Below are positions 3,114-52,428 of a stretch of 52,428 bases of DNA, piece by piece. The stretch is from contig CAYXFX010000004.1 in assembly GCA_964464405.1 (NCBI GenBank), positions 1 through 52,428 on the forward strand. The letters run 5' to 3'. This stretch comes from an uncultured Candidatus Saccharibacteria bacterium. Its GTDB lineage: Bacteria; Patescibacteriota; Minisyncoccia; UBA11713; 2-01-FULL-45-33. A program made the position numbers and the translations under genes. A model generated the notes under the pieces. The model saw only the letters and a program-made list of their open reading frames with translations, had not been told where the DNA came from and searched no databases. Within the stretch, counting starts at the first letter, position 1; every line of letters begins with the position of its first letter.

Positions 3114-5327
3114 CTAATCTGATGGAGCTTCGGCATCTTCAATATTACCCAGATCCTTCATCTCTTTTTCTAATGATTTAGGATCAATAATAGATTGAAG
3201 ATACCCATCGGTTTCTTCGGGAAAGGGAATAGATTCATTGGGGGCATACCAATTTTCCAGCACATATTTTGAAATTGGCCCTGCTATAGACCCTCCTGTT
3301 GCTCGGTCGCCCAAAGATTCCTCGTAACTCTCAGGACCGCCGACCCATCCGCCGAATGTAATATTTGTTGTAAAGCCAATGAACCAAGCGTCCTTGTATC
3401 CTTCTGTCGTTCCTGTTTTTCCAGCGACAGGTTGTGGCAGCGAGTTAAATGATCTTGCTGTTCCAAATTTCACGGTTCCTCTTAAGGCGTCTACCATGAC
3501 TCCCGCCAAAACTTCGCTGATTCCGCATTCAAGCTTTATTTCTTCTTTTTCTTTAATTTCCTGTTGAACCACTCTTTTTCCTTTTTGAACGGTTTTATAA
3601 GAAGTTTTAACCAGAGCATATTTTCCGCAATCTTTTTGTTTTTCCGGCAATCCGTGTTTTGCGATAATTTCGCCGCGGAAATTTGTAATTTTTGAGATCA
3701 TATATGTTTTATAAAGACTCCCTTTATTGGGAAAAACCGAATATGCGCGCACCATTTGGTACAGTGAAATACTCGATGCTCCCAATGCGCTAGGAAGATG
3801 TTCGTCAAATGGGCTTGTAATTCCGAGTCGGCGTACCATCATTGTAACTCGTGGATTTAGCGCGCATTTTCCCACTTGTGCTGTCCAGACAGCCGGGCGG
3901 TTTATAGATTGGGCAATTGCCATGCGCCGCGAATAGTTTGCGGCACGGAATTTTTTTTCGTCAAAATTTCTTGGAGACCATATGGTCCAAGATTTTGTTT
4001 TCGGATTCCAAGTGCTTCTGCATGCCATGGGCGCGTTTGAAACGTTTCGATCCAAAAGTGTTTCGGGTTTTTTCCCGTCTTCCATGTCCTCTTCGAACTT
4101 TGCCGAATATATAAAAGGTTTAATAGATGATCCGTCTTGTCTGTCTCCGAATACATGATTGAATTTTCTGCGTGAATAATCGTTTCCGCCTACCATTGCA
4201 AGAATTGCCCCGGTTCCGTTTTCAATTGTTAAAAATGCGCCTTCAGCATCGATGGCCCGTTCCTTATATTTTGCATGATATGTTTCAAGCGCTTTCTTTA
4301 CTCCTTCTTTTGCGAAAATTTGCATTTCCTTATCGATGGTGAGATGGATGCGTATTCCGTGCCAGGCCTCGTTTTCGCCTTTAGGGTCAAAAACTAGCCC
4401 ATATTTATTTATCTCGCGAGCCGTATAATCCATTAAGTGGCCATCAAAGTTGCAAACTTTTGTGAACTCATCAGAAATTACAATTGGCTCTTTTAAGGCT
4501 TGTTCGTATTCTGCCTTGCTTATAACTTTTTCTTGTAAGGATTTAAACAGCACGACATCACGTGCTTCTTTTGCGCGTGCGGGATTTTCTTTTGTTGGCG
4601 ATCTTGTGGCGGGGGATTTAATCATGCTGGCAAGCACCGCTGCTTCGGAAATAGTTAATTCGGAAGCGGTTTTATTAAAGTAAAATCTTGCCGCCGCTTC
4701 GACGCCGTAACGCTGGTGGTCCATTGCAATTTCACTTAAGTAAAGAGCAAGAATTGCGTCTTTATTTTTGTTGAATTTCCAGAAAAGACCGAAAGCAAGC
4801 ATGACTTCTTTAATTTTTCGTTCATAAGTTTTTTCAAAGCGCTCCTCGGGCGAAAGTAATTGTTTTACGAGTTGCTGGGGGATAGTGGATCCGCCTTCGA
4901 CAATTTTCCCTGCGTTATAATTCTCGGCTTGAGCTCTTATGATTGCTTTCAAATCAAAAACCATGAAATTTCTGCTGTAAAATCTTTTGTCTTCGGCAGC
5001 TAAAATAATGCGCGCCGCGCGCATATTTTTTATATTTTGCGGATAAACAATATCGCGCCATCCGTTTTCCCACGCTTTGCATCCCAAAATTTTGCCATTT
5101 TTGTCTAAAATATAACTTGTTTGGTAGGGATTGTAGTTAAAATACGGGTCGTAACCCGGCAGATTCTGATATATTTGCCAGAGCCAAATTCCGGCATAGG
5201 TCGAGCTACCGAGAAAAAACAGTAAAAATATCCACTTTAACCAATAAAATACGCACTTAAAAATTTTGGTAACGTAAGTCCATGTTTTTTTTATGGCACC
5301 GACAAAGGCCTGCCATGCTTTTTTCAC
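3114..5327 (-). CDS. Class A penicillin-binding protein (PBP1A family, transglycosylase + transpeptidase)
   Basis: AEDKRF, GGSTIPQQLVK, RKIKE transglycosylase motifs; SSIK (SxxK), SIN (SxN), KTGT transpeptidase motifs; N-terminal TM; GTG start with AAGGAG SD. Confidence 0.93.
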   Translation of the reverse strand: MKKAWQAFVGAIKKTWTYVTKIFKCVFYWLKWIFLLFFLGSSTYAGIWLWQIYQNLPGYDPYFNYNPYQTSYILDKNGKILGCKAWENGWRDIVYPQNIKNMRAARIILAAEDKRFYSRNFMVFDLKAIIRAQAENYNAGKIVEGGSTIPQQLVKQLLSPEERFEKTYERKIKEVMLAFGLFWKFNKNKDAILALYLSEIAMDHQRYGVEAAARFYFNKTASELTISEAAVLASMIKSPATRSPTKENPARAKEARDVVLFKSLQEKVISKAEYEQALKEPIVISDEFTKVCNFDGHLMDYTAREINKYGLVFDPKGENEAWHGIRIHLTIDKEMQIFAKEGVKKALETYHAKYKERAIDAEGAFLTIENGTGAILAMVGGNDYSRRKFNHVFGDRQDGSSIKPFIYSAKFEEDMEDGKKPETLLDRNVSNAPMACRSTWNPKTKSWTIWSPRNFDEKKFRAANYSRRMAIAQSINRPAVWTAQVGKCALNPRVTMMVRRLGITSPFDEHLPSALGASSISLYQMVRAYSVFPNKGSLYKTYMISKITNFRGEIIAKHGLPEKQKDCGKYALVKTSYKTVQKGKRVVQQEIKEKEEIKLECGISEVLAGVMVDALRGTVKFGTARSFNSLPQPVAGKTGTTEGYKDAWFIGFTTNITFGGWVGGPESYEESLGDRATGGSIAGPISKYVLENWYAPNESIPFPEETDGYLQSIIDPKSLEKEMKDLGNIEDAEAPSD

Positions 5328-5571
5328 AACATTACTCCTTTTTCAAGCTACTTTTGTTACTGAAATATATACTACGTTGCGCCAGCGATCTTTTCAACCT
5401 TGCAAAAAATTTAATTTATTTCAGTATTATTCAATACTATTTAATGTCGAAAATAAAAGCGATCGCCTTTATTTCTGACATGAAATGTTTGCGGTGCGAA
5501 AATAGGTGGCCTCATACAAAAAAATGACTTTATTTGGTTTTTGTATTAAAATTATTTATATAAATTTTAAA

Positions 5572-5645
5572 GCGGTTGTAGTTTAGTGGCAGAATAATTG
5601 CTTCCCAAGCAATAGGTGTGGGTCCGATTCCCGCCAACCGCACCA
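5572..5645 (+). tRNA. tRNA-Gly(CCC)
   Basis: Cloverleaf: acceptor GCGGTTG/CAACCGC, anticodon stem ATTGC/GCAAT around TTCCCAA, encoded CCA. Confidence 0.95.
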
Positions 5646-5796
5646 CTTCGCCCACGCCGCTTCGCTACGCGGGCTTCGCGGTGTCGTACGCCGCAAAGTG
5701 CTTTGCACGACGTGGCGCAAGCACAAAAAAATCTATAGCTTGCAACATTTTAGAATAAAAAGCGAAGTGGCCCCGCGAAACGCAGTGAAGTGGGGC
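5643..5796. repeat. REP-like palindrome cluster upstream of GIY-YIG gene
   Basis: CCACTTCGC..GCTTCGCGG starting at the tRNA CCA, and inverse GCGAAGTGG-CCCCGCGAAACGCAGTGAAGTGGGG. Confidence 0.7.
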
Positions 5797-5804
5797 AAAA
5801 CAAT

Positions 5805-6044
5805 ATGTATTACTGTTATATCTTACAAAGTCTTAAAGATAAAAGTTTCTACGTCGGATCAACCTTTGATCTTAAAGAAAGATTCGGGCAACATAATAAT
5901 AAAGAGGCTAAATATTCTTCAAGCAAAACCCCGTTTAAAATAATTTGGTATGGTGCATTTGAAAACAAATCCAAGGCTCAAAAATTTGAGAAGTATTTGA
6001 AATCAAGTTCAGGATTCGCATTCAGAAACAAAAGGTTAATTTAA
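5805..6044 (+). CDS. Small stand-alone GIY-YIG nuclease (UPF0213/YhbQ-like), 79 aa
   Basis: YCYILQS..FYVGST..L.ER..QHN and later E..A.KFEKYLK pattern; ATG 5805 preferred over GTG 5790. Confidence 0.88.
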   Translation: MYYCYILQSLKDKSFYVGSTFDLKERFGQHNNKEAKYSSSKTPFKIIWYGAFENKSKAQKFEKYLKSSSGFAFRNKRLI

Positions 6045-6067
6045 TCGCCAGTTGAATTTCAGAAATT

Positions 6068-6235
6068 CTTGCCCATCCATAGCCACGTCTTGCGTGGCGA
6101 AGGAGGGTTGCGGGTTCTTCTCCTTCGCTCTACGAGCTTCGGAAGGACTCAGTAACACTTGCCTTGCCGTAGCCTTGGCGAAGGCAGGTCATCTTGTTGT
6201 CCGCTTGCTTTGCCGTAGCTTTACGCGAAGGCGGG
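6068..6235. repeat. Four REP-like palindromic units downstream of GIY-YIG gene
   Basis: Units fit CCNCCTWCGC-N(2-13)-GCTWYGG at about 6068-6107 (-), 6120-6148 (+), 6157-6189 (-), 6203-6235 (-). Confidence 0.8.
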
Positions 6236-6410
6236 TATAGAGAAATGGATTTTTTTGATTATAAAAATCAATTCTTCTGAAAATTAAACGACTTTTCTTT
6301 TGCAAGCGAGGTTCTAACTTACTTCCGTAAAAACTTGACTTTTTTCTCAAATAGTGTACACTCTTAAACAATCTGTATCTTGAAAAATCAAGTGTTGGGA
6401 GGAAAATACT

Positions 6411-7466
6411 ATGAAAAATGTGGAACTCGTAAAAGGTCGTTGTGCTCTTTGTCGAGGACCGATTGATGAAAAATGGACAGAACATCCTTCCCTCGGCACC
6501 AAATGTAGAGATTGTTCTTACAAAAATCCGGAACCGCAAGTTTTCGGTCCAGAAAATCTGGAAATCTGCGTAAAAAAACAGGTATCTTTTGACCCACTCT
6601 TTGGGGTGTATGATTATTATTTTGAATGGGCTGGCACAAAAGTAAGCATCAATGGGAAGATTGGTATCGTGAGATCGACACAAGCTGATTGCGCTTGGGT
6701 TATCTTCGATGACACAAAGCGGAGTTTCGGTGAACCAATCGACGAACTCGGCTACTGGGACATTTTTCAAATCTACAAAGAAGCAGGAGGAGAAACTGAG
6801 CCACCAACCTTGGATTTGCCGGAACATATTCCGCAAGCGGTTCCATTGATGGAAAAACCGCTTATTCCTCTTGAAATTCAAAAAGATAGACATGACAGAA
6901 TTCAAAATGTTTCTCTACGTGACTCTGAGTTACGTAACTGTTTTTTGGGGACTGATTTGGTTCAGATGTTTCAGGCCTTTTGCAACACATATGTTCGTTT
7001 TAGGTTTGGCCTCGCTCAAAATCTGTGTTGCGAAGGAGGCTTTGTCGGCAGAAATTTCGAGGTCAGAAATTCGATGGGTTGTCTCGGCATCTCGATCGAC
7101 TACAGTTCTTCTTACGATGATATTAACTCTGTGCAAAGTGCGGAGGGACTGAAAACTTTGGCTGTCACACAAGAATTGATCGACATGACCATCGAAAAAG
7201 AAGAAAAAAGAATTAAGAAAGATCGTTCAAAAATTCTTGTGTTAAACCCAAGCTCAGAGCTTATTCTTTCGACATGGGTGACGACACTCGAGACGCTCCT
7301 AAAATATGACTGGCGAAGCCAGAAATATGAAACCATCGAAGACATCTGGCAATGTCACTGCAGAATACAAGATATTCTGCTTAACATCATGCCAGCAGAT
7401 ATACTCCAAGAGGTGCTGGCGTTCGCAAAAAACAACCGTGCTGTTCACTACGGCCAAAGCTTCTAA
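6411..7466 (+). CDS. Hypothetical protein with N-terminal CxxC..CxxC putative zinc ribbon
   Basis: 351 aa ORF, GGAGG SD, CALC and CRDC motifs; no family recognised. Confidence 0.65.
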   Translation: MKNVELVKGRCALCRGPIDEKWTEHPSLGTKCRDCSYKNPEPQVFGPENLEICVKKQVSFDPLFGVYDYYFEWAGTKVSINGKIGIVRSTQADCAWVIFDDTKRSFGEPIDELGYWDIFQIYKEAGGETEPPTLDLPEHIPQAVPLMEKPLIPLEIQKDRHDRIQNVSLRDSELRNCFLGTDLVQMFQAFCNTYVRFRFGLAQNLCCEGGFVGRNFEVRNSMGCLGISIDYSSSYDDINSVQSAEGLKTLAVTQELIDMTIEKEEKRIKKDRSKILVLNPSSELILSTWVTTLETLLKYDWRSQKYETIEDIWQCHCRIQDILLNIMPADILQEVLAFAKNNRAVHYGQSF

Positions 7467-15724: not shown

Positions 15725-16321
15725 ATGGGTACCGCCTCAATGACGACTGGGCAGTTTCGGGAGTTTGCCGGAGCCGTACTCCGCTCGCTTCCCGACGATC
15801 TTGACCCCACCACCGCGCAGGGATGGATCGAGAACCAGGAAAGCCTGCGCAAGATTCTCCGCGAGGCGCTCACGCCGGACGGCAAACCCGCCGGCAACAC
15901 CTACCCCCTATCCGTGGACTACGGAAGAGGCGTGGAGTGCGCGGTGAAGTCCGGTCGCTACGACTGGGCTAACTCCGATGTCACCTCCAGAAACTTCCCG
16001 ACCGAGCGGAAGGGAACGGTTGAGGTTGCGGTGGAGCTCATCCACTTCAACCGGCACATCTCAACCGGCGAGGTGCACCGCGAACTCGACAGGATGGGAT
16101 ACCGTCCGGCCGAGCTTCACGAGCTTCTCGCCTTTGGCGAGAAGTATCCGGAAGTCCAGCGCGAGTTTCTGATCGTGGCGCTTGGTTCTGTCTGGCAGGA
16201 CCGGGGCGGCGACCTCCGCGTCCCGCGCCTCAGCAGGGACGGTTCGGAGCGCACGCTGTACCTGGGCTGGGTCGAGGACGGCTGGGACGAGATCTACCGG
16301 TTCGCGGCCATCCGCAAGTAG
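15725..16321 (+). CDS. GC-rich hypothetical protein with C-type-lectin/DGR-target-like C-terminus
   Basis: 198 aa, AAGGAGG SD, about 65% GC in a sampled 60-nt line; C-terminus VPRL..DGSERTLYLGW.E.GW.E.YRFAA.RK. Confidence 0.7.
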   Translation: MGTASMTTGQFREFAGAVLRSLPDDLDPTTAQGWIENQESLRKILREALTPDGKPAGNTYPLSVDYGRGVECAVKSGRYDWANSDVTSRNFPTERKGTVEVAVELIHFNRHISTGEVHRELDRMGYRPAELHELLAFGEKYPEVQREFLIVALGSVWQDRGGDLRVPRLSRDGSERTLYLGWVEDGWDEIYRFAAIRK

Positions 16322-16540: not shown

Positions 16541-16614
16541 TGGCTCCGGGACTACGATTCGAACGTAGATTACTCCGTCCAGAGCGGAGCGTCCTACCAT
16601 TAGACGATCCCGGA
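16541..16614 (-). tRNA. tRNA-Gln(CTG)
   Basis: Acceptor TCCGGGA/TCCCGGA, anticodon stem CTCCG/CGGAG around CTCTGGA, GTTCGAAT T-loop, encoded CCA. Confidence 0.95.
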
Positions 16615-51900: not shown

Positions 51901-51931
51901 CCTGCCCGCCGAAGCTTTACGCGTAGGTGGG
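51901..51931 (-). repeat. Lone REP-like unit of the GIY-YIG-associated family
   Basis: GCCGAAGCTTTACGCGTAGGTGGG (51908-51931) vs GCCGTAGCTTTACGCGAAGGCGGG (6212-6235): 21/24 identical. Confidence 0.8.
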
Positions 51932-52426
51932 GACGAACCCCGACGCGGAGCCATAGCCCTCGTTGGTGCTGTCGACACAGTAGGCGACGAACTTGACCTC
52001 GCCGCCGCTGAAGCGGAAGACCGGCGCGTCCGAGAACTCGCCAACGGCATCGGGAGCGTATTCGTCACCGGGGCAGTCGATGTGCAACTGCTCGCATTGA
52101 ACGAGCCGCTCGGGATGCGACAGGATCATGCACCCTGCGATGAAGGACCCCAAGCCGAACTCGTGGGGAGCGTAGACCACGCGCACCCTTCGCACGGACC
52201 GACCGCGATGGGTCAGGCCAAACTGCGCTGGAATGAGTAAAAAGTCGTCCTTCTGCTTTTCGCCGATCATCTGAAGCGCGACGGCCGTCCGCTTCGAGAT
52301 CCGCAGGTACTTCGGGCCGAGTGCGCCCTTGCGGTAGTTGTGGAAGGTGCGGGTCTTGCCGATCAGGTCGAGGACCTTCTCGACAGCCTCGTTGTACGAG
52401 GACGCAACCTTCTCCCACCGCGGAAC
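51917..52426 (-). CDS. GC-rich hypothetical protein (5' truncated by window) with DGR-target-like C-terminus
   Basis: Frame is open to the window edge (VPRWEKVASSYNEAVEKVLDL...); ends DAPVFRFSGGEVKF..CVD..NEGYGSASGFVP. Confidence 0.7.
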   Translation of the reverse strand, partial: VPRWEKVASSYNEAVEKVLDLIGKTRTFHNYRKGALGPKYLRISKRTAVALQMIGEKQKDDFLLIPAQFGLTHRGRSVRRVRVVYAPHEFGLGSFIAGCMILSHPERLVQCEQLHIDCPGDEYAPDAVGEFSDAPVFRFSGGEVKFVAYCVDSTNEGYGSASGFVPTYA

Positions 52427-52428
52427 GG

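What the first reader, a model, noticed from the sequence alone, without database searches (positions are those of the whole stretch)
5572..6235. tRNA-anchored GIY-YIG nuclease surrounded by REP/REPIN-like palindromes: candidate nuclease-driven repeat-dispersal element
Seen: the first palindrome begins with the tRNA-Gly CCA itself (CCA-CTTCGC). At least two units precede and four follow a 79 aa GIY-YIG gene, sharing CCNCCTWCGC-Nx-GCTWYGG in mixed orientations. Established: REP/REPIN repeats flank and are attributed to HUH RAYT transposases. Inference: here a GIY-YIG nuclease occupies the RAYT position and may recognise or nick these hairpins, docking at tRNA 3' ends. I know of no demonstration of this for GIY-YIG proteins, but a literature check is needed.
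Basis: partly seen in the sequence, partly recalled or inferred. Interest (0 to 1): 0.75.

Follow-up and report, generated by a model that had tools for sequence, protein, structure and literature searches.

The report
Hairpin-flanked mini GIY-YIG mobile element
A tiny nuclease gene sitting directly behind a tRNA gene and wrapped in conserved DNA hairpins is one copy of a widespread, apparently mobile and, as far as the searchable literature shows, undescribed element of ultra-small bacteria, which may point to a new way that short repeats and genes spread within genomes.

Summary
tRNA-Gly(CCC) (5572-5645) is followed from its CCA onward by GC-rich hairpin units. These surround a 79-aa GIY-YIG gene (5805-6044): three units upstream and four downstream.

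The same layout recurs in relatives. In 80 loci the gene is preceded by an inverted pair of units (CTTG-stem-G[A/T]AGC-loop-GCGAAG-stem'). In at least 70% of them a same-strand tRNA or tmRNA gene ends 30-320 nt upstream.

The unit stems covary, and G·T exceeds A·C by 57 to 12, so the GAAG-bearing strand folds as a single strand. The protein belongs to the Slx1/UPF0213 lineage of structure-specific nucleases, not the homing-endonuclease lineage.

Mobility is well supported:
- Copies differing at 2 of 240 nt sit behind two different tRNA-Gly genes.
- An element is 100% identical between genomes whose flanks are 83% identical.
- Some copies are bounded by 14-16-nt direct repeats running from the T-loop to the tRNA 3' end.

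Solo units occur widely: inside reading frames, in tRNA pseudogenes and on phage-like contigs. They are sparse here, with one in the other 52 kb.

Best reading: a new nuclease-plus-hairpin mobile element. It resembles REP/RAYT in layout but uses different chemistry. That the nuclease acts on the hairpins is inferred, not shown.

The parts
5572..5645 (+). tRNA-Gly(CCC) gene. Its last five bases (CACCA) form the outer part of the first hairpin arm.
   Evidence: ARAGORN; Rfam tRNA, 66.9 bits.
5641..5683 (-). 'A' unit, a compound hairpin unit in inverted orientation. Its arms are CACCACTTCGC and GCTTCGCGGTG, with an extra CTTCGC arm inside.
   Evidence: Sequence; CM hit 5651-5673(-). The same position and orientation is seen in 80 relatives.
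5684..5717 (+). Extra nested unit with a variant core (CGCCGC-AAAGT-loop-ACGAC-GTGGCG). It is an insertion relative to the near-identical copies L001 and L228.
   Evidence: Alignments; weak CM hits at 5682-5719.
5718..5724 (-). CAAGCAC tail of the A unit. It is the reverse complement of the unit's CTTG prefix and is conserved as GCA[A/G/C]GCAC in relatives.
5725..5761 (.). AT-rich spacer. In many relatives this position holds a terminator-like hairpin plus a T-run.
5762..5770 (+). 'B1' half-arm GCGAAGTGG. It is the exact complement of CCACTTCGC at 5643-5651, that is, the tRNA CCA plus the element's left end.
   Evidence: A B1-type arm is conserved in relatives.
5769..5796 (+). 'B' unit. This is the hairpin GGCCCCGC-GAAAC-GC-AGTGAAG-TGGGGC, ending 8 nt before the start codon.
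   Evidence: Best CM hit in the window, 33.8 bits, E=1.5e-6; folds as a hairpin.
5805..6044 (+). 79-aa stand-alone GIY-YIG nuclease of the Slx1/UPF0213 lineage. The conserved set is Y5, Y16, R26, H30, E62 and N75.
   Evidence: Pfam; alignment A1; PDB profile search; AF2 model, pLDDT 83; Foldseek hits to Slx1, TMq 0.65-0.74.
6068..6107 (+). Downstream unit D1 (CTTG-CCCATCC-ATAGC..GCGAAG-GAGGG). It is also present in L002 and absent from L001.
6116..6147 (-). Downstream unit D2, in inverted orientation.
   Evidence: homologous to L001 3969-3999(-).
6158..6188 (+). Downstream unit D3 (CTTG-CCTTGCC-GTAGC-CTTG-GCGAAG-GCAGG).
   Evidence: CM hit, 30.4 bits.
6204..6235 (+). Downstream unit D4 (CTTG-CTTTGCC-GTAGC-TTTAC-GCGAAG-GCGGG).
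   Evidence: CM hit, 28.6 bits.
6236..6258 (.). Right-end sequence tatagagaaatggattttttt. It is shared with L001 (~4052-4075) and is the likely right limit of the element in this lineage.
51902..51933 (+). Solo unit far from the gene. It supplies the last codons and the stop codon of a GC-rich minus-strand ORF.
   Evidence: CM hit, 28.9 bits; translation.

Best explanation
Window 5641-6258 is one copy of a family of small mobile elements that live immediately 3' of tRNA and tmRNA genes. They occur in Patescibacteria and in a few other uncultivated phyla.

Each copy has two kinds of component:
- Roughly 30-nt hairpin units with a conserved core. An inverted pair lies upstream of the gene, and its left arm overlaps the tRNA CCA end. 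Extra units are optional.
- A minimal 79-aa GIY-YIG nuclease of the Slx1/UPF0213 (structure-specific) lineage.

Proposed mechanism (inferred):
1. The GAAG-bearing strand of a unit folds into a hairpin when it is single-stranded or extruded.
2. The nuclease recognises this structure and its core and nicks near the foot.
3. The break is repaired by copying from a unit-bearing locus that carries the gene.
4. The gene and its module are thereby copied into other unit- or tRNA-end sites. This amounts to structure-directed homing.
5. The same activity may mobilise ORF-less units in trans.

Shown: the conserved architecture, the hairpin covariation and strand polarity, the tRNA/tmRNA association, recent mobility, and tRNA 3'-end duplications in a subset of copies.

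Inferred: that the nuclease acts on the units, and how copies are made.
For: Architecture:
- It is conserved in 80 relatives at 48-99% identity. Units in (-) orientation peak at -150..-50 and units in (+) orientation at -50..0 from the ATG.
- The N-terminal mis-extensions of more distant family members translate tRNA T-arms and units.

tRNA/tmRNA association:
- 55 of 79 loci have a same-strand tRNA or tmRNA within 400 nt upstream, and none has one on the opposite strand. The control is 15 of 404 ORFs.

Hairpin:
- 96.4% of cells are paired, 8 of 9 pairs show compensatory changes, and 0 of 500 shuffles reach the observed values.
- G·T versus A·C is 57 to 12, p=4e-8, in a sample selected on the core only.

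Protein:
- The catalytic residues are invariant.
- It is closest to UPF0213 and to the Slx1 nuclease domain, not to I-TevI.
- The two differences between the window and L228 copies are both synonymous.

Mobility:
- The window and L228 copies differ at 2 of 240 nt but follow different tRNA-Gly genes with unrelated flanks.
- L056 and L057 have flanks at 83% identity and an element at 100%. The identical block ends exactly at a 16-nt copy of the tRNA-Tyr 3' end.
- L001 and L002 share only the element.
- 14-nt direct repeats of the tRNA 3' end bound the element in L072 and L077.
- There are population variants.

Concordance within a locus:
- The stem sequence of the B unit recurs in A1, A2 and B1 of the same locus in 42% of loci, against 2% for arms taken from other loci.
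Against: - No experiment links the protein to the hairpins.
- 98% of randomly sampled units have no GIY-YIG gene beside them. Phage-like contigs carry 5-6 units and no such gene.
- Units within one locus differ in their stems, so they are not simple identical copies.
- Most copies with the window's layout show no flanking direct repeat.
- GIY-YIG enzymes hydrolyse DNA and cannot join strands, so host repair must do the copying.
- The prokaryotic Slx1 lineage has been regarded as vertically inherited repair proteins rather than selfish ones (PMC1564403).
- Only one solo unit lies in the remaining 52 kb of the window.
Confidence: 0.5

Rival explanations
1. The gene is a free-standing homing-type endonuclease gene that merely parasitises an independent palindromic repeat family. 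The units (or the tRNA trailer module) are its landing and cleavage site. They are created and dispersed by something else, such as another enzyme, replication slippage or fold-back synthesis.
For: - Units are far more widespread than the gene. Only 2 of 103 have it adjacent, and they occur on GC 0.29-0.68 contigs and on phage-like contigs without it.
- The gene occupies two different positions relative to the module: after the B unit, or between the A and B units. This is what independent invasions would produce.
- Modules without the gene exist behind tRNAs (L046 4713).
Against: - The protein has no DNA-binding domain and belongs to the Slx1 lineage rather than the homing-endonuclease lineage.
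- In many loci the gene-proximal units share stems with each other, which suggests local generation.
- This rival differs from the best explanation only in who disperses the solo units.
Confidence: 0.27
2. This is a host function rather than a mobile element. The small nuclease would be a housekeeping tRNA/tmRNA-linked enzyme (RNA or DNA metabolism) co-located with stable-RNA genes. The hairpins would be processing, terminator or stabiliser structures of the tRNA trailer and the gene's leader.
For: - The gene is always on the same strand as, and downstream of, the tRNA or tmRNA.
- The spacer often holds a terminator-like hairpin.
- A published fusion of a prokaryotic Slx1-like domain to a TrmH-like tRNA methyltransferase led to the suggestion of a role in RNA metabolism (PMC1564403).
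- The G·T bias is equally compatible with RNA.
Against: - The partner tRNA differs from genome to genome: at least 11 tRNA identities plus tmRNA.
- Near-identical copies sit in unrelated contexts, and an element is 100% identical in 83%-identical flanks.
- Direct repeats of tRNA ends bound some copies.
- The A unit folds best on the strand antisense to the tRNA.
- Units occur inside ORFs in either orientation, 10 in the same sense and 10 opposite among the 20 listed.
- Units also disrupt tRNA pseudogenes.
Confidence: 0.12
3. This is a toxin-antitoxin-like or self-regulating cassette. The hairpin RNA or DNA upstream would bind and restrain, or autoregulate, a toxic nuclease. The layout would be analogous to repeat-RNA (type III) antitoxins, which are separated from their toxin gene by a terminator.
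For: The layout is repeats, then a terminator-like spacer, then a nuclease gene. The B unit overlaps the likely promoter or leader, and many loci have TATAAT 7-10 nt before the ATG.
Against: - The units are not tandem direct repeats.
- There is no PADLOC- or TA-type evidence.
- This does not explain the tRNA-end duplications or the dispersed solo units.
Confidence: 0.05

Closest known systems
REP/REPIN-RAYT systems
   Same: - A single small nuclease-type gene is flanked by short imperfect palindromes.
- The palindromes also occur as solo copies and as inverted doublets.
- The hairpins are strand-specific and carry a conserved 5' tetranucleotide (CTTG here, GTAG in REPs).
   Different: - The enzyme is a hydrolytic GIY-YIG, not an HUH/Y1 transposase.
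- The gene is strongly tied to tRNA/tmRNA 3' ends.
- The element itself shows recent horizontal movement.
- Solo units are sparse in this genome rather than present in hundreds.
- Unit stems are diverse rather than near-identical.
Free-standing GIY-YIG homing endonuclease genes (e.g. T4 Seg proteins, including SegB in the T4 tRNA gene cluster; I-TevI) (from my own knowledge)
   Same: - An intergenic, selfish-looking GIY-YIG gene.
- A precedent for residence among tRNA genes.
- Spread by break repair is the most plausible copying route.
   Different: - At 79 aa it has no linker or DNA-binding domain.
- By sequence and fold it sits with Slx1/UPF0213, not with I-TevI.
- It has conserved flanking hairpin modules and dispersed ORF-less units.
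Slx1 / bacterial UPF0213 (YhbQ-type) minimal GIY-YIG nucleases
   Same: - Best sequence and structure matches: 1ZG2, 1YWL and the Slx1 nuclease domain, at 30-40% identity and TMq up to 0.74.
- A minimal stand-alone domain.
- Slx1 cuts branched and stem-loop DNA.
   Different: - No RING domain and no Slx4 partner.
- The published view of the prokaryotic branch is of vertically inherited repair proteins (PMC1564403).
- Here the genes are multi-context, hairpin-flanked and mobile-looking.
Rickettsia palindromic elements and other MITE-like palindromes (from my own knowledge)
   Same: - Short palindromic units inserted in frame in protein genes (L014 YchF-like ORF).
- Also inserted in or next to stable-RNA genes.
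- Nested insertions occur.
   Different: - Units are shorter (~30 nt), with a fixed GCGAAG core.
- They are associated with a specific nuclease gene.
- No clear TIR plus fixed-length TSD.
Integrase-borne genomic islands in tRNA/tmRNA genes
   Same: - Located at the 3' end of tRNA/tmRNA genes.
- In a subset of copies, a direct repeat of the tRNA 3' segment bounds the element while the tRNA stays intact.
   Different: - No integrase is present.
- The element is only 0.4-1.2 kb.
- The repeat runs from the T-loop/T-stem border to the 3' end (14-19 nt).
Fungal mitochondrial GC-rich palindromic clusters / double-hairpin elements with free-standing GIY-YIG ORFs (from my own knowledge; mitochondrial papers surfaced)
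   Same: - GC-rich hairpins in an AT-rich genome.
- Proximity to tRNA genes.
- GIY-YIG ORFs that carry a replacement gene end and leave the displaced end downstream.
   Different: - A different lineage of GIY-YIG.
- An organellar context.
- No conserved inverted-pair module.

Membership tests
REP/RAYT (REPIN) system | The associated gene encodes an HUH/Y1 (IS200/IS605-like) transposase. | tested here: not met
   The gene is a GIY-YIG domain only.
REP/RAYT (REPIN) system | The gene is flanked by imperfect palindromes with a conserved 5' tetranucleotide, and these also form inverted doublets. | tested here: met
   Units with a CTTG prefix lie on both sides of the gene in the window. An inverted pair lies upstream in relatives, and doublets occur elsewhere.
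REP/RAYT (REPIN) system | Tens to hundreds of near-identical copies are dispersed in the same genome. | tested here: inconclusive
   There is one solo unit in ~52 kb of the window and about one per 30 kb in the flanks of relatives. No whole genome was available, and stems are diverse.
Free-standing GIY-YIG homing endonuclease | A GIY-YIG catalytic domain with intact catalytic residues. | tested here: met
   Y5, Y16, R26, H30 and E62 are invariant or nearly so; confident fold.
Free-standing GIY-YIG homing endonuclease | A C-terminal DNA-binding region (NUMOD, zinc finger or HTH) that confers long-site specificity. | tested here: not met
   The protein is 79 aa with no further domain.
Free-standing GIY-YIG homing endonuclease | Membership of the HEase/UvrC+ sequence lineage. 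| tested here: not met
   I-TevI matches at E=0.3 by sequence and E~0.1 by fold. UPF0213 matches at 3.6e-12 and Slx1 at 2e-5.
Free-standing GIY-YIG homing endonuclease | Presence/absence polymorphism in otherwise collinear genomes, and higher conservation than the flanks. | tested here: met
   L056/L057 show 100% versus 83%. L019/L023 show 94% versus 84-87%. The window, L001 and L002 share only the element. A clean empty site for the whole element was not found.
Slx1/UPF0213 minimal GIY-YIG nucleases | A sequence or profile match, plus fold similarity, to UPF0213 and to the Slx1 nuclease domain. | tested here: met
Slx1/UPF0213 minimal GIY-YIG nucleases | Structure-specific cleavage of branched or hairpin DNA. 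| not testable with these tools
   Needs biochemistry.
Integrase-type tRNA/tmRNA genomic island | A tyrosine or serine integrase encoded at the island's end. | tested here: not met
   There is no such ORF between the tRNA and the right end. The element is ~0.6 kb.
Integrase-type tRNA/tmRNA genomic island | A direct repeat of the tRNA 3' segment at the distal end. | tested here: inconclusive
   It is clear in L072 and L077 (14 nt), in L056/57 (16 nt with 1 mismatch) and in L022 (19 nt). It is absent or undetected in most loci and in the window.
IS200/IS605-type single-strand transposon | Subterminal hairpins on one strand plus a TnpA (HUH) gene. | tested here: not met
   The units at the two sides are in inverted orientation, and there is no HUH protein.
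Known RNA family (Rfam) | A match of the module or units to any Rfam 15 model. | tested here: not met
   Only the tRNA matched at E <= 1 in 5300-6500.

The most novel reading that the evidence does not exclude
A stand-alone Slx1-type GIY-YIG nuclease is the dedicated mobilising enzyme of a family of single-strand DNA hairpin repeats. It would be a functional counterpart of RAYT/TnpA that works by structure-specific nicking plus host repair. It would choose the hairpin-like 3' ends of tRNA and tmRNA genes as its docking site. That would make this a new class of DNA mobile element, GIY-YIG-driven and needing neither a transposase nor an integrase. The thousands of 'GCGAAG' hairpins scattered through uncultivated bacteria and their phages would be its non-autonomous progeny.
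Probability: 0.3. Interest if true: 0.92.

Novelty: new variant of a known kind. Interest (0 to 1): 0.8.

Why it matters
- It would add a nuclease family thought to be housekeeping (prokaryotic Slx1-like GIY-YIG) to the short list of enzymes that drive mobile DNA.
- It would explain a very common and, in the searchable literature, unnamed GC-rich palindrome of candidate-phyla genomes. That palindrome breaks assemblies, creates spurious N-terminal extensions and 'AFAKATADK'-type peptides, and inserts into proteins, tRNAs and rRNA operons.
- It offers a tractable system of 79 aa plus a 30-nt hairpin for studying structure-directed DNA cleavage and tRNA-end targeting.
- It also flags tmRNA and tRNA-Ala 3' ends as hot spots of genome plasticity in Patescibacteria.

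Tried and rejected
- Rfam scan of 5300-6500 at E <= 1: only the tRNA matched, so the module is not a curated RNA family.
- First regex for units was mis-registered by one base and gave only background. The corrected version still has a high background (65-78 expected), so I replaced it with a covariance model.
- Systematic search for a copy of the upstream tRNA's last 30 nt within 1.2 kb downstream: positive only in a minority of loci. A universal target duplication is therefore not supported.
- Orthologous empty site through the neighbouring 351-aa gene: relatives are at most 54% identical and not syntenic, so this was uninformative.
- 'Units always accompany the gene': rejected. Only 2 of 103 metagenome units have it, and none of the viral-contig units do.
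- 'Dense REP-like dispersal in this genome': not supported in the 52 kb available.
- Variation of the core motif (GAAAG versus GAAG) with protein subclass: only a weak trend, 22% versus 8%.
- RNase P RNA and 16S V1 insertions of units (L062, L012): suggestive by eye. The RNase P match did not reach Rfam threshold and the 16S hit is weak.
- Eight literature searches found nothing on this association.
- Chance as an explanation is rejected by the shuffles and by the positional enrichment.
Full report
OBSERVATION. The window is a 40% GC Patescibacteria-type sequence. It matches NCBI assembly GCA_016176325.1 at 99.9% identity. ARAGORN and Rfam place tRNA-Gly(CCC) at 5572-5645. Its CCA is followed directly by CTTCGC. 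The ORF 5805-6044 (79 aa) is a GIY-YIG domain (Pfam E=7e-19). Around it, GC content rises to 0.52-0.65, while the ORF itself is about 0.30.

A covariance model of the hairpin unit was scored on every position of the window. Four strong hits are at 5768-5797, 6160-6190, 6206-6237 and 51902-51933. Weaker hits are at 5651-5673(-), 6069-6109 and 6120-6144(-). The cluster is far from chance, because seven of the eight units in 52 kb lie within 670 nt.

ANATOMY. The unit is 5'-CTTG, a stem of 5-7 nt, G[A/T]AGC, a loop (often TTTA), GCGAAG, and the complementary stem.

Upstream of the gene, in order:
- An inverted 'A' unit whose outer arm is CACCA (the tRNA end) plus CTTCGC (5641-5683).
- A nested extra unit (5684-5717).
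- The CAAGCAC tail.
- An AT-rich spacer.
- A half-arm, 'B1' (GCGAAGTGG, 5762-5770), which is the exact complement of CCACTTCGC at the tRNA junction.
- A direct 'B' unit (5769-5796), ending 8 nt before the ATG.

Downstream of the gene there are four more units (6068-6235). They are followed by a short sequence that is shared with a sister copy.

PROTEIN. Twenty-three relatives align without gaps. Y5, Y16, H30, N31, E62, N75 and K76 are invariant, and R26 is nearly so. A profile search of PDB sequences finds the bacterial UPF0213 proteins BH0048 (3.6e-12) and EF2693, then the Slx1 nuclease domain (2e-5). I-TevI and UvrC are marginal.

The AlphaFold model is confident (pLDDT 83) except for the basic C-terminal tail. 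Foldseek gives the same order, with Slx1 at TMq 0.65-0.74 and 30-40% identity, and I-TevI only at E about 0.1. So this is a minimal member of the structure-specific Slx1 lineage. The 2006 phylogenomic survey treated that lineage as ancestral, vertically inherited and non-selfish. In that survey the homing and restriction enzymes derive from the UvrC-like lineage (PMC1564403).

The family is large. There are 2,392 representative clusters at E <= 1e-10, all of them small proteins.

THE LAYOUT IS CONSERVED. I fetched 80 loci of relatives (48-99% identity) from species-representative genomes. Nearly all carry the same upstream module. Units in (-) orientation peak 50-150 nt before the ATG. Units in (+) orientation peak within 50 nt of it. 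The covariance model gives 147 hits, and the great majority lie within 250 nt upstream of the gene.

In 55 of 79 loci a tRNA or tmRNA gene on the same strand ends within 400 nt upstream, most often about 125 nt. None lies on the opposite strand. Among other ORFs of the same loci the figure is 15 of 404. The partners are tmRNA (19), Ala (12), Gly (8), Tyr, Glu, Val, Lys, Leu, His, Thr, Gln and Ser. Several of the 'negative' loci show an unmistakable tmRNA 3' end by eye.

More distant family members were called with N-terminal extensions that translate tRNA T-arms (GSIPATST, RGFESLPLRH) and units (LRSFSEGG, EALAKWG). The association therefore extends across the family. Ten of 86 loci hold a second, divergent GIY-YIG gene within 3 kb on the same strand. 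In L012 two such genes sit behind the two tRNAs downstream of a 16S rRNA gene.

THE UNIT IS A SINGLE-STRAND HAIRPIN. On 31 units, 96.4% of cells pair and 8 of 9 pairs show compensatory changes in 47 cells. No shuffle out of 500 reaches these values, and sliding the partner columns destroys the signal. The three-by-three internal loop (G-N-A opposite G-A-A) and the two inner pairs are conserved.

I also took a sample selected only on the core sequence, 87 units from metagenome and viral contigs. There, G·T mismatches outnumber A·C by 57 to 12 (p=4e-8). A purely double-stranded palindrome would show no such asymmetry. The strand carrying GAAG must therefore fold.

The A unit folds best on the strand antisense to the tRNA, and the B unit on the sense strand. 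Units inside open frames show no orientation preference: 10 are in the same sense and 10 opposite among the 20 listed. I read this as favouring single-stranded DNA over RNA, but it does not exclude RNA.

Within a locus, the stem of the B unit recurs in A1, A2 and B1 in 42% of loci. For arms borrowed from other loci the figure is 2%. The two units of a module are therefore often copies of each other, or they co-evolve.

MOBILITY.
- A Logan contig (L228) from the same sample series as the window organism's short contigs L088 and L089 encodes the identical protein. There are 2 differences in 240 nt, both synonymous. It also has a near-identical module, but it sits behind tRNA-Gly(UCC) with unrelated flanks. 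The species-representative genome L001 has the same arrangement.
- L002, a Lloydbacteria MAG, shares only the element (89%), and there it sits behind tRNA-Val.
- L056 and L057 are two Peribacteria species from different studies. Their upstream flanks are 83% identical, but a block from the spacer to 29 nt past the stop codon is 100% identical. The block ends exactly at ...CCCTCCtGGCCCACCA, a copy of the tRNA-Tyr 3' end, and the sequences beyond it are unrelated.
- In the second architecture (L072, L077, L054) the ORF lies between the A unit and B1 plus the B unit. The element is then bounded by a 14-nt (or 9-nt) direct repeat of the tRNA 3' end.
- In all clear cases the repeat runs from the T-loop/T-stem border to the tRNA 3' end (14, 14, 16 and 19 nt). 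This fits a staggered or structure-defined break at the tRNA 3' region. Most copies with the window's layout show no such repeat.
- Population variants exist. The NCBI assembly of the window organism lacks exactly 5572-5738, that is, the tRNA, the A unit and the nested unit. This may be real or an assembly effect of the duplicated element.
- In the P0017 locus, some samples carry a 1.1-kb insertion that splits the old tRNA-Ile in its D-loop. The insertion brings a new intact tRNA-Ile, a RibD_C gene and a second GIY-YIG gene. The old tRNA remnant is further broken by GC hairpins in its D and anticodon loops.
- A unit also sits in the T-loop of a second tRNA-Tyr copy in L056.

UNITS AWAY FROM THE GENE. 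In the flanks of the 80 loci, about a dozen units lie more than 500 nt from the gene (roughly 1 per 30 kb).
- One is in frame inside a YchF-like GTPase, where it adds LPTEALAKAGE.
- Two are just upstream of tmRNA genes.
- One is a solo A unit behind a tRNA-Ala with no nuclease gene.
- Two are tentative cases, in an RNase P-like RNA and in 16S V1.

An exact search for GCGWAGCTTTAGCGAAG found 17 stretches on IMG/VR contigs. None has the gene, and some contigs carry 5-6 units in 16-19 kb. Among those metagenome units:
- 2 of 103 have the gene immediately downstream.
- 9 of 120 loci have it somewhere.
- 7 of 124 abut a tRNA or tmRNA 3' end in the A orientation.
- Many form nested 'onion' arrays.
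- 25% lie deep inside long open frames, against 54% for random positions.

The units are therefore a widespread dispersed palindrome in their own right. They are enriched next to the gene and next to tRNA ends, but mostly stand alone.

INTERPRETATION.

Shown:
- A conserved composite of a minimal Slx1-type nuclease and strand-specific hairpins at tRNA/tmRNA 3' ends.
- Recent copying of this composite between loci and between genomes.
- tRNA-end duplications in a subset of copies.
- Dispersed ORF-less units.

Inferred:
- The nuclease recognises the folded unit. This rests on the invariant adjacency, on the structure-specific lineage of the enzyme, and on the conserved core combined with freely covarying stems.
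- Breaks at units or at hairpin-like tDNA ends are repaired by copying from a gene-bearing copy. I call this structure-directed homing.
- The same activity may mobilise solo units.

I put this at about 0.5. The main rival (0.27) keeps the selfish gene but makes the units an independent repeat that it merely targets. A housekeeping, tRNA-linked reading (0.12) is weakened by the changing tRNA partner, by identical copies in unrelated contexts and by the duplications. A toxin-antitoxin-like reading is possible but thin (0.05).

COMPARISON AND NOVELTY. In layout this resembles REP/REPIN-RAYT. It fails the defining feature, which is an HUH transposase, and it lacks the copy numbers seen so far. It resembles free-standing GIY-YIG homing genes in behaviour, but it lacks their DNA-binding region and belongs to the other GIY-YIG lineage. 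It resembles integrase islands in site and occasional direct repeats, but it has no integrase.

Eight full-text searches found no description of the association or of the unit sequence or its peptides. I rate it a new variant of known kinds, namely selfish nuclease genes and palindromic repeats. I give a 0.3 chance that it is a categorically new, GIY-YIG-driven class of mobile DNA.

CAVEATS. All the data are from metagenome assemblies, and repeats break such assemblies. No complete genome could be scanned, so per-genome copy numbers and co-occurrence are unknown. The seed alignment of units was hand-picked, although the G·T test and the positional enrichments were not. Taxon labels of many MAGs are generic.

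Noticed in passing
window 15725-16321 (+), next to tRNA-Gln 16541-16614 (-): A 198-aa ORF of about 63% GC sits in a 40% GC genome. It is followed by a strong terminator-like hairpin and converges on a tRNA-Gln gene. It has no Pfam hit and only a weak PHROG hit of unknown function. It looks like recently acquired foreign DNA.
   Followed up: partly
window 51920-52428 (-): A second GC-rich ORF (~65% GC, at least 169 aa) runs off the window end. It has no Pfam or PHROG hit. Its last codons and stop codon are supplied by the solo hairpin unit at 51902-51933.
   Followed up: partly
window 5572-5738 versus L087 (GCA_016176325.1, JACOXL010000016.1): The NCBI assembly of the same organism (99.9% identical) lacks exactly the tRNA-Gly gene, the A unit and the nested unit (167 nt). 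The junction is TTTTAAA|CTTGCAAC. This is either a real deletion/insertion polymorphism or an assembly artefact of the duplicated element.
   Followed up: partly
L088, L089 (Logan contigs) = window 5990 onward; L228 ends at the equivalent of window ~6072: Independent short-read assemblies break inside or just after the GIY-YIG gene. This is consistent with the element being present in more than one context in those samples.
   Followed up: no
L081 1330-1470 and 2400-2560 (also L083, L085) versus L082, L084: In some samples a ~1.1-kb insertion splits a tRNA-Ile gene in its D-loop. The insertion carries a replacement tRNA-Ile with a different acceptor stem, a RibD_C gene and a second (86-aa) GIY-YIG gene. 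The old tRNA remnant carries GC-rich hairpins in its D and anticodon loops.
   Followed up: partly
L014 3772-4857 (unit at 4315-4345): A hairpin unit is inserted in frame in a YchF-type GTPase gene, adding LPTEALAKAGE. This is reminiscent of Rickettsia palindromic elements.
   Followed up: partly
L012 2-3237: Two GIY-YIG genes each follow one of the two tRNA genes downstream of a complete 16S rRNA gene, so they probably lie in the 16S-23S spacer. A weak unit-like hairpin lies in the 16S V1 region (70-101).
   Followed up: partly
L062 5940-6060: An A-type unit with its GCAAGCAC tail lies right after a GGAGGAAAGTCCGG motif typical of RNase P RNA. The RNA did not reach the Rfam threshold, because the locus is cut at its end.
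   Followed up: partly
L102, L107/L093, L105 (IMG/VR contigs): Phage-like contigs carry 5-6 units, including back-to-back inverted doublets, in 16-19 kb. They have no GIY-YIG gene of this family.
   Followed up: partly
L110, L136, L210, L214 and other metagenome loci: These loci hold nested 'onion' arrays, with repeated CTTGTCCGCCGA-type left arms and GCGAAGGCGGA-type right arms around one core. This suggests units insert into the loops of other units. Their reverse-strand translation gives AFAKATADK-like peptides.
   Followed up: no
L056 5250-5486: A second copy of the tRNA-Tyr 3' region plus module lies 2.4 kb downstream of the first. A unit is inserted in its T-loop (GGTTCGAA|unit|TCCCTCC).
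   Followed up: partly
L015 just after the GIY-YIG stop; L072 ~130 nt upstream of tRNA-Gln: 14-19-nt copies of tRNA 5' ends (GGACGATTAGCTCA; TGCGGGGTCGTCTAATGGT) are separated from the intact tRNA by hairpin-containing inserts. Insertions therefore also occur at tRNA 5' parts, and the tRNA is regenerated.
   Followed up: no
many relatives (e.g. L008, L010, L016, L026, L034, L051), last 20 nt before the ATG: A TATAAT-like box lies 7-10 nt before the start codon. This suggests a leaderless mRNA whose promoter overlaps the B unit.
   Followed up: no
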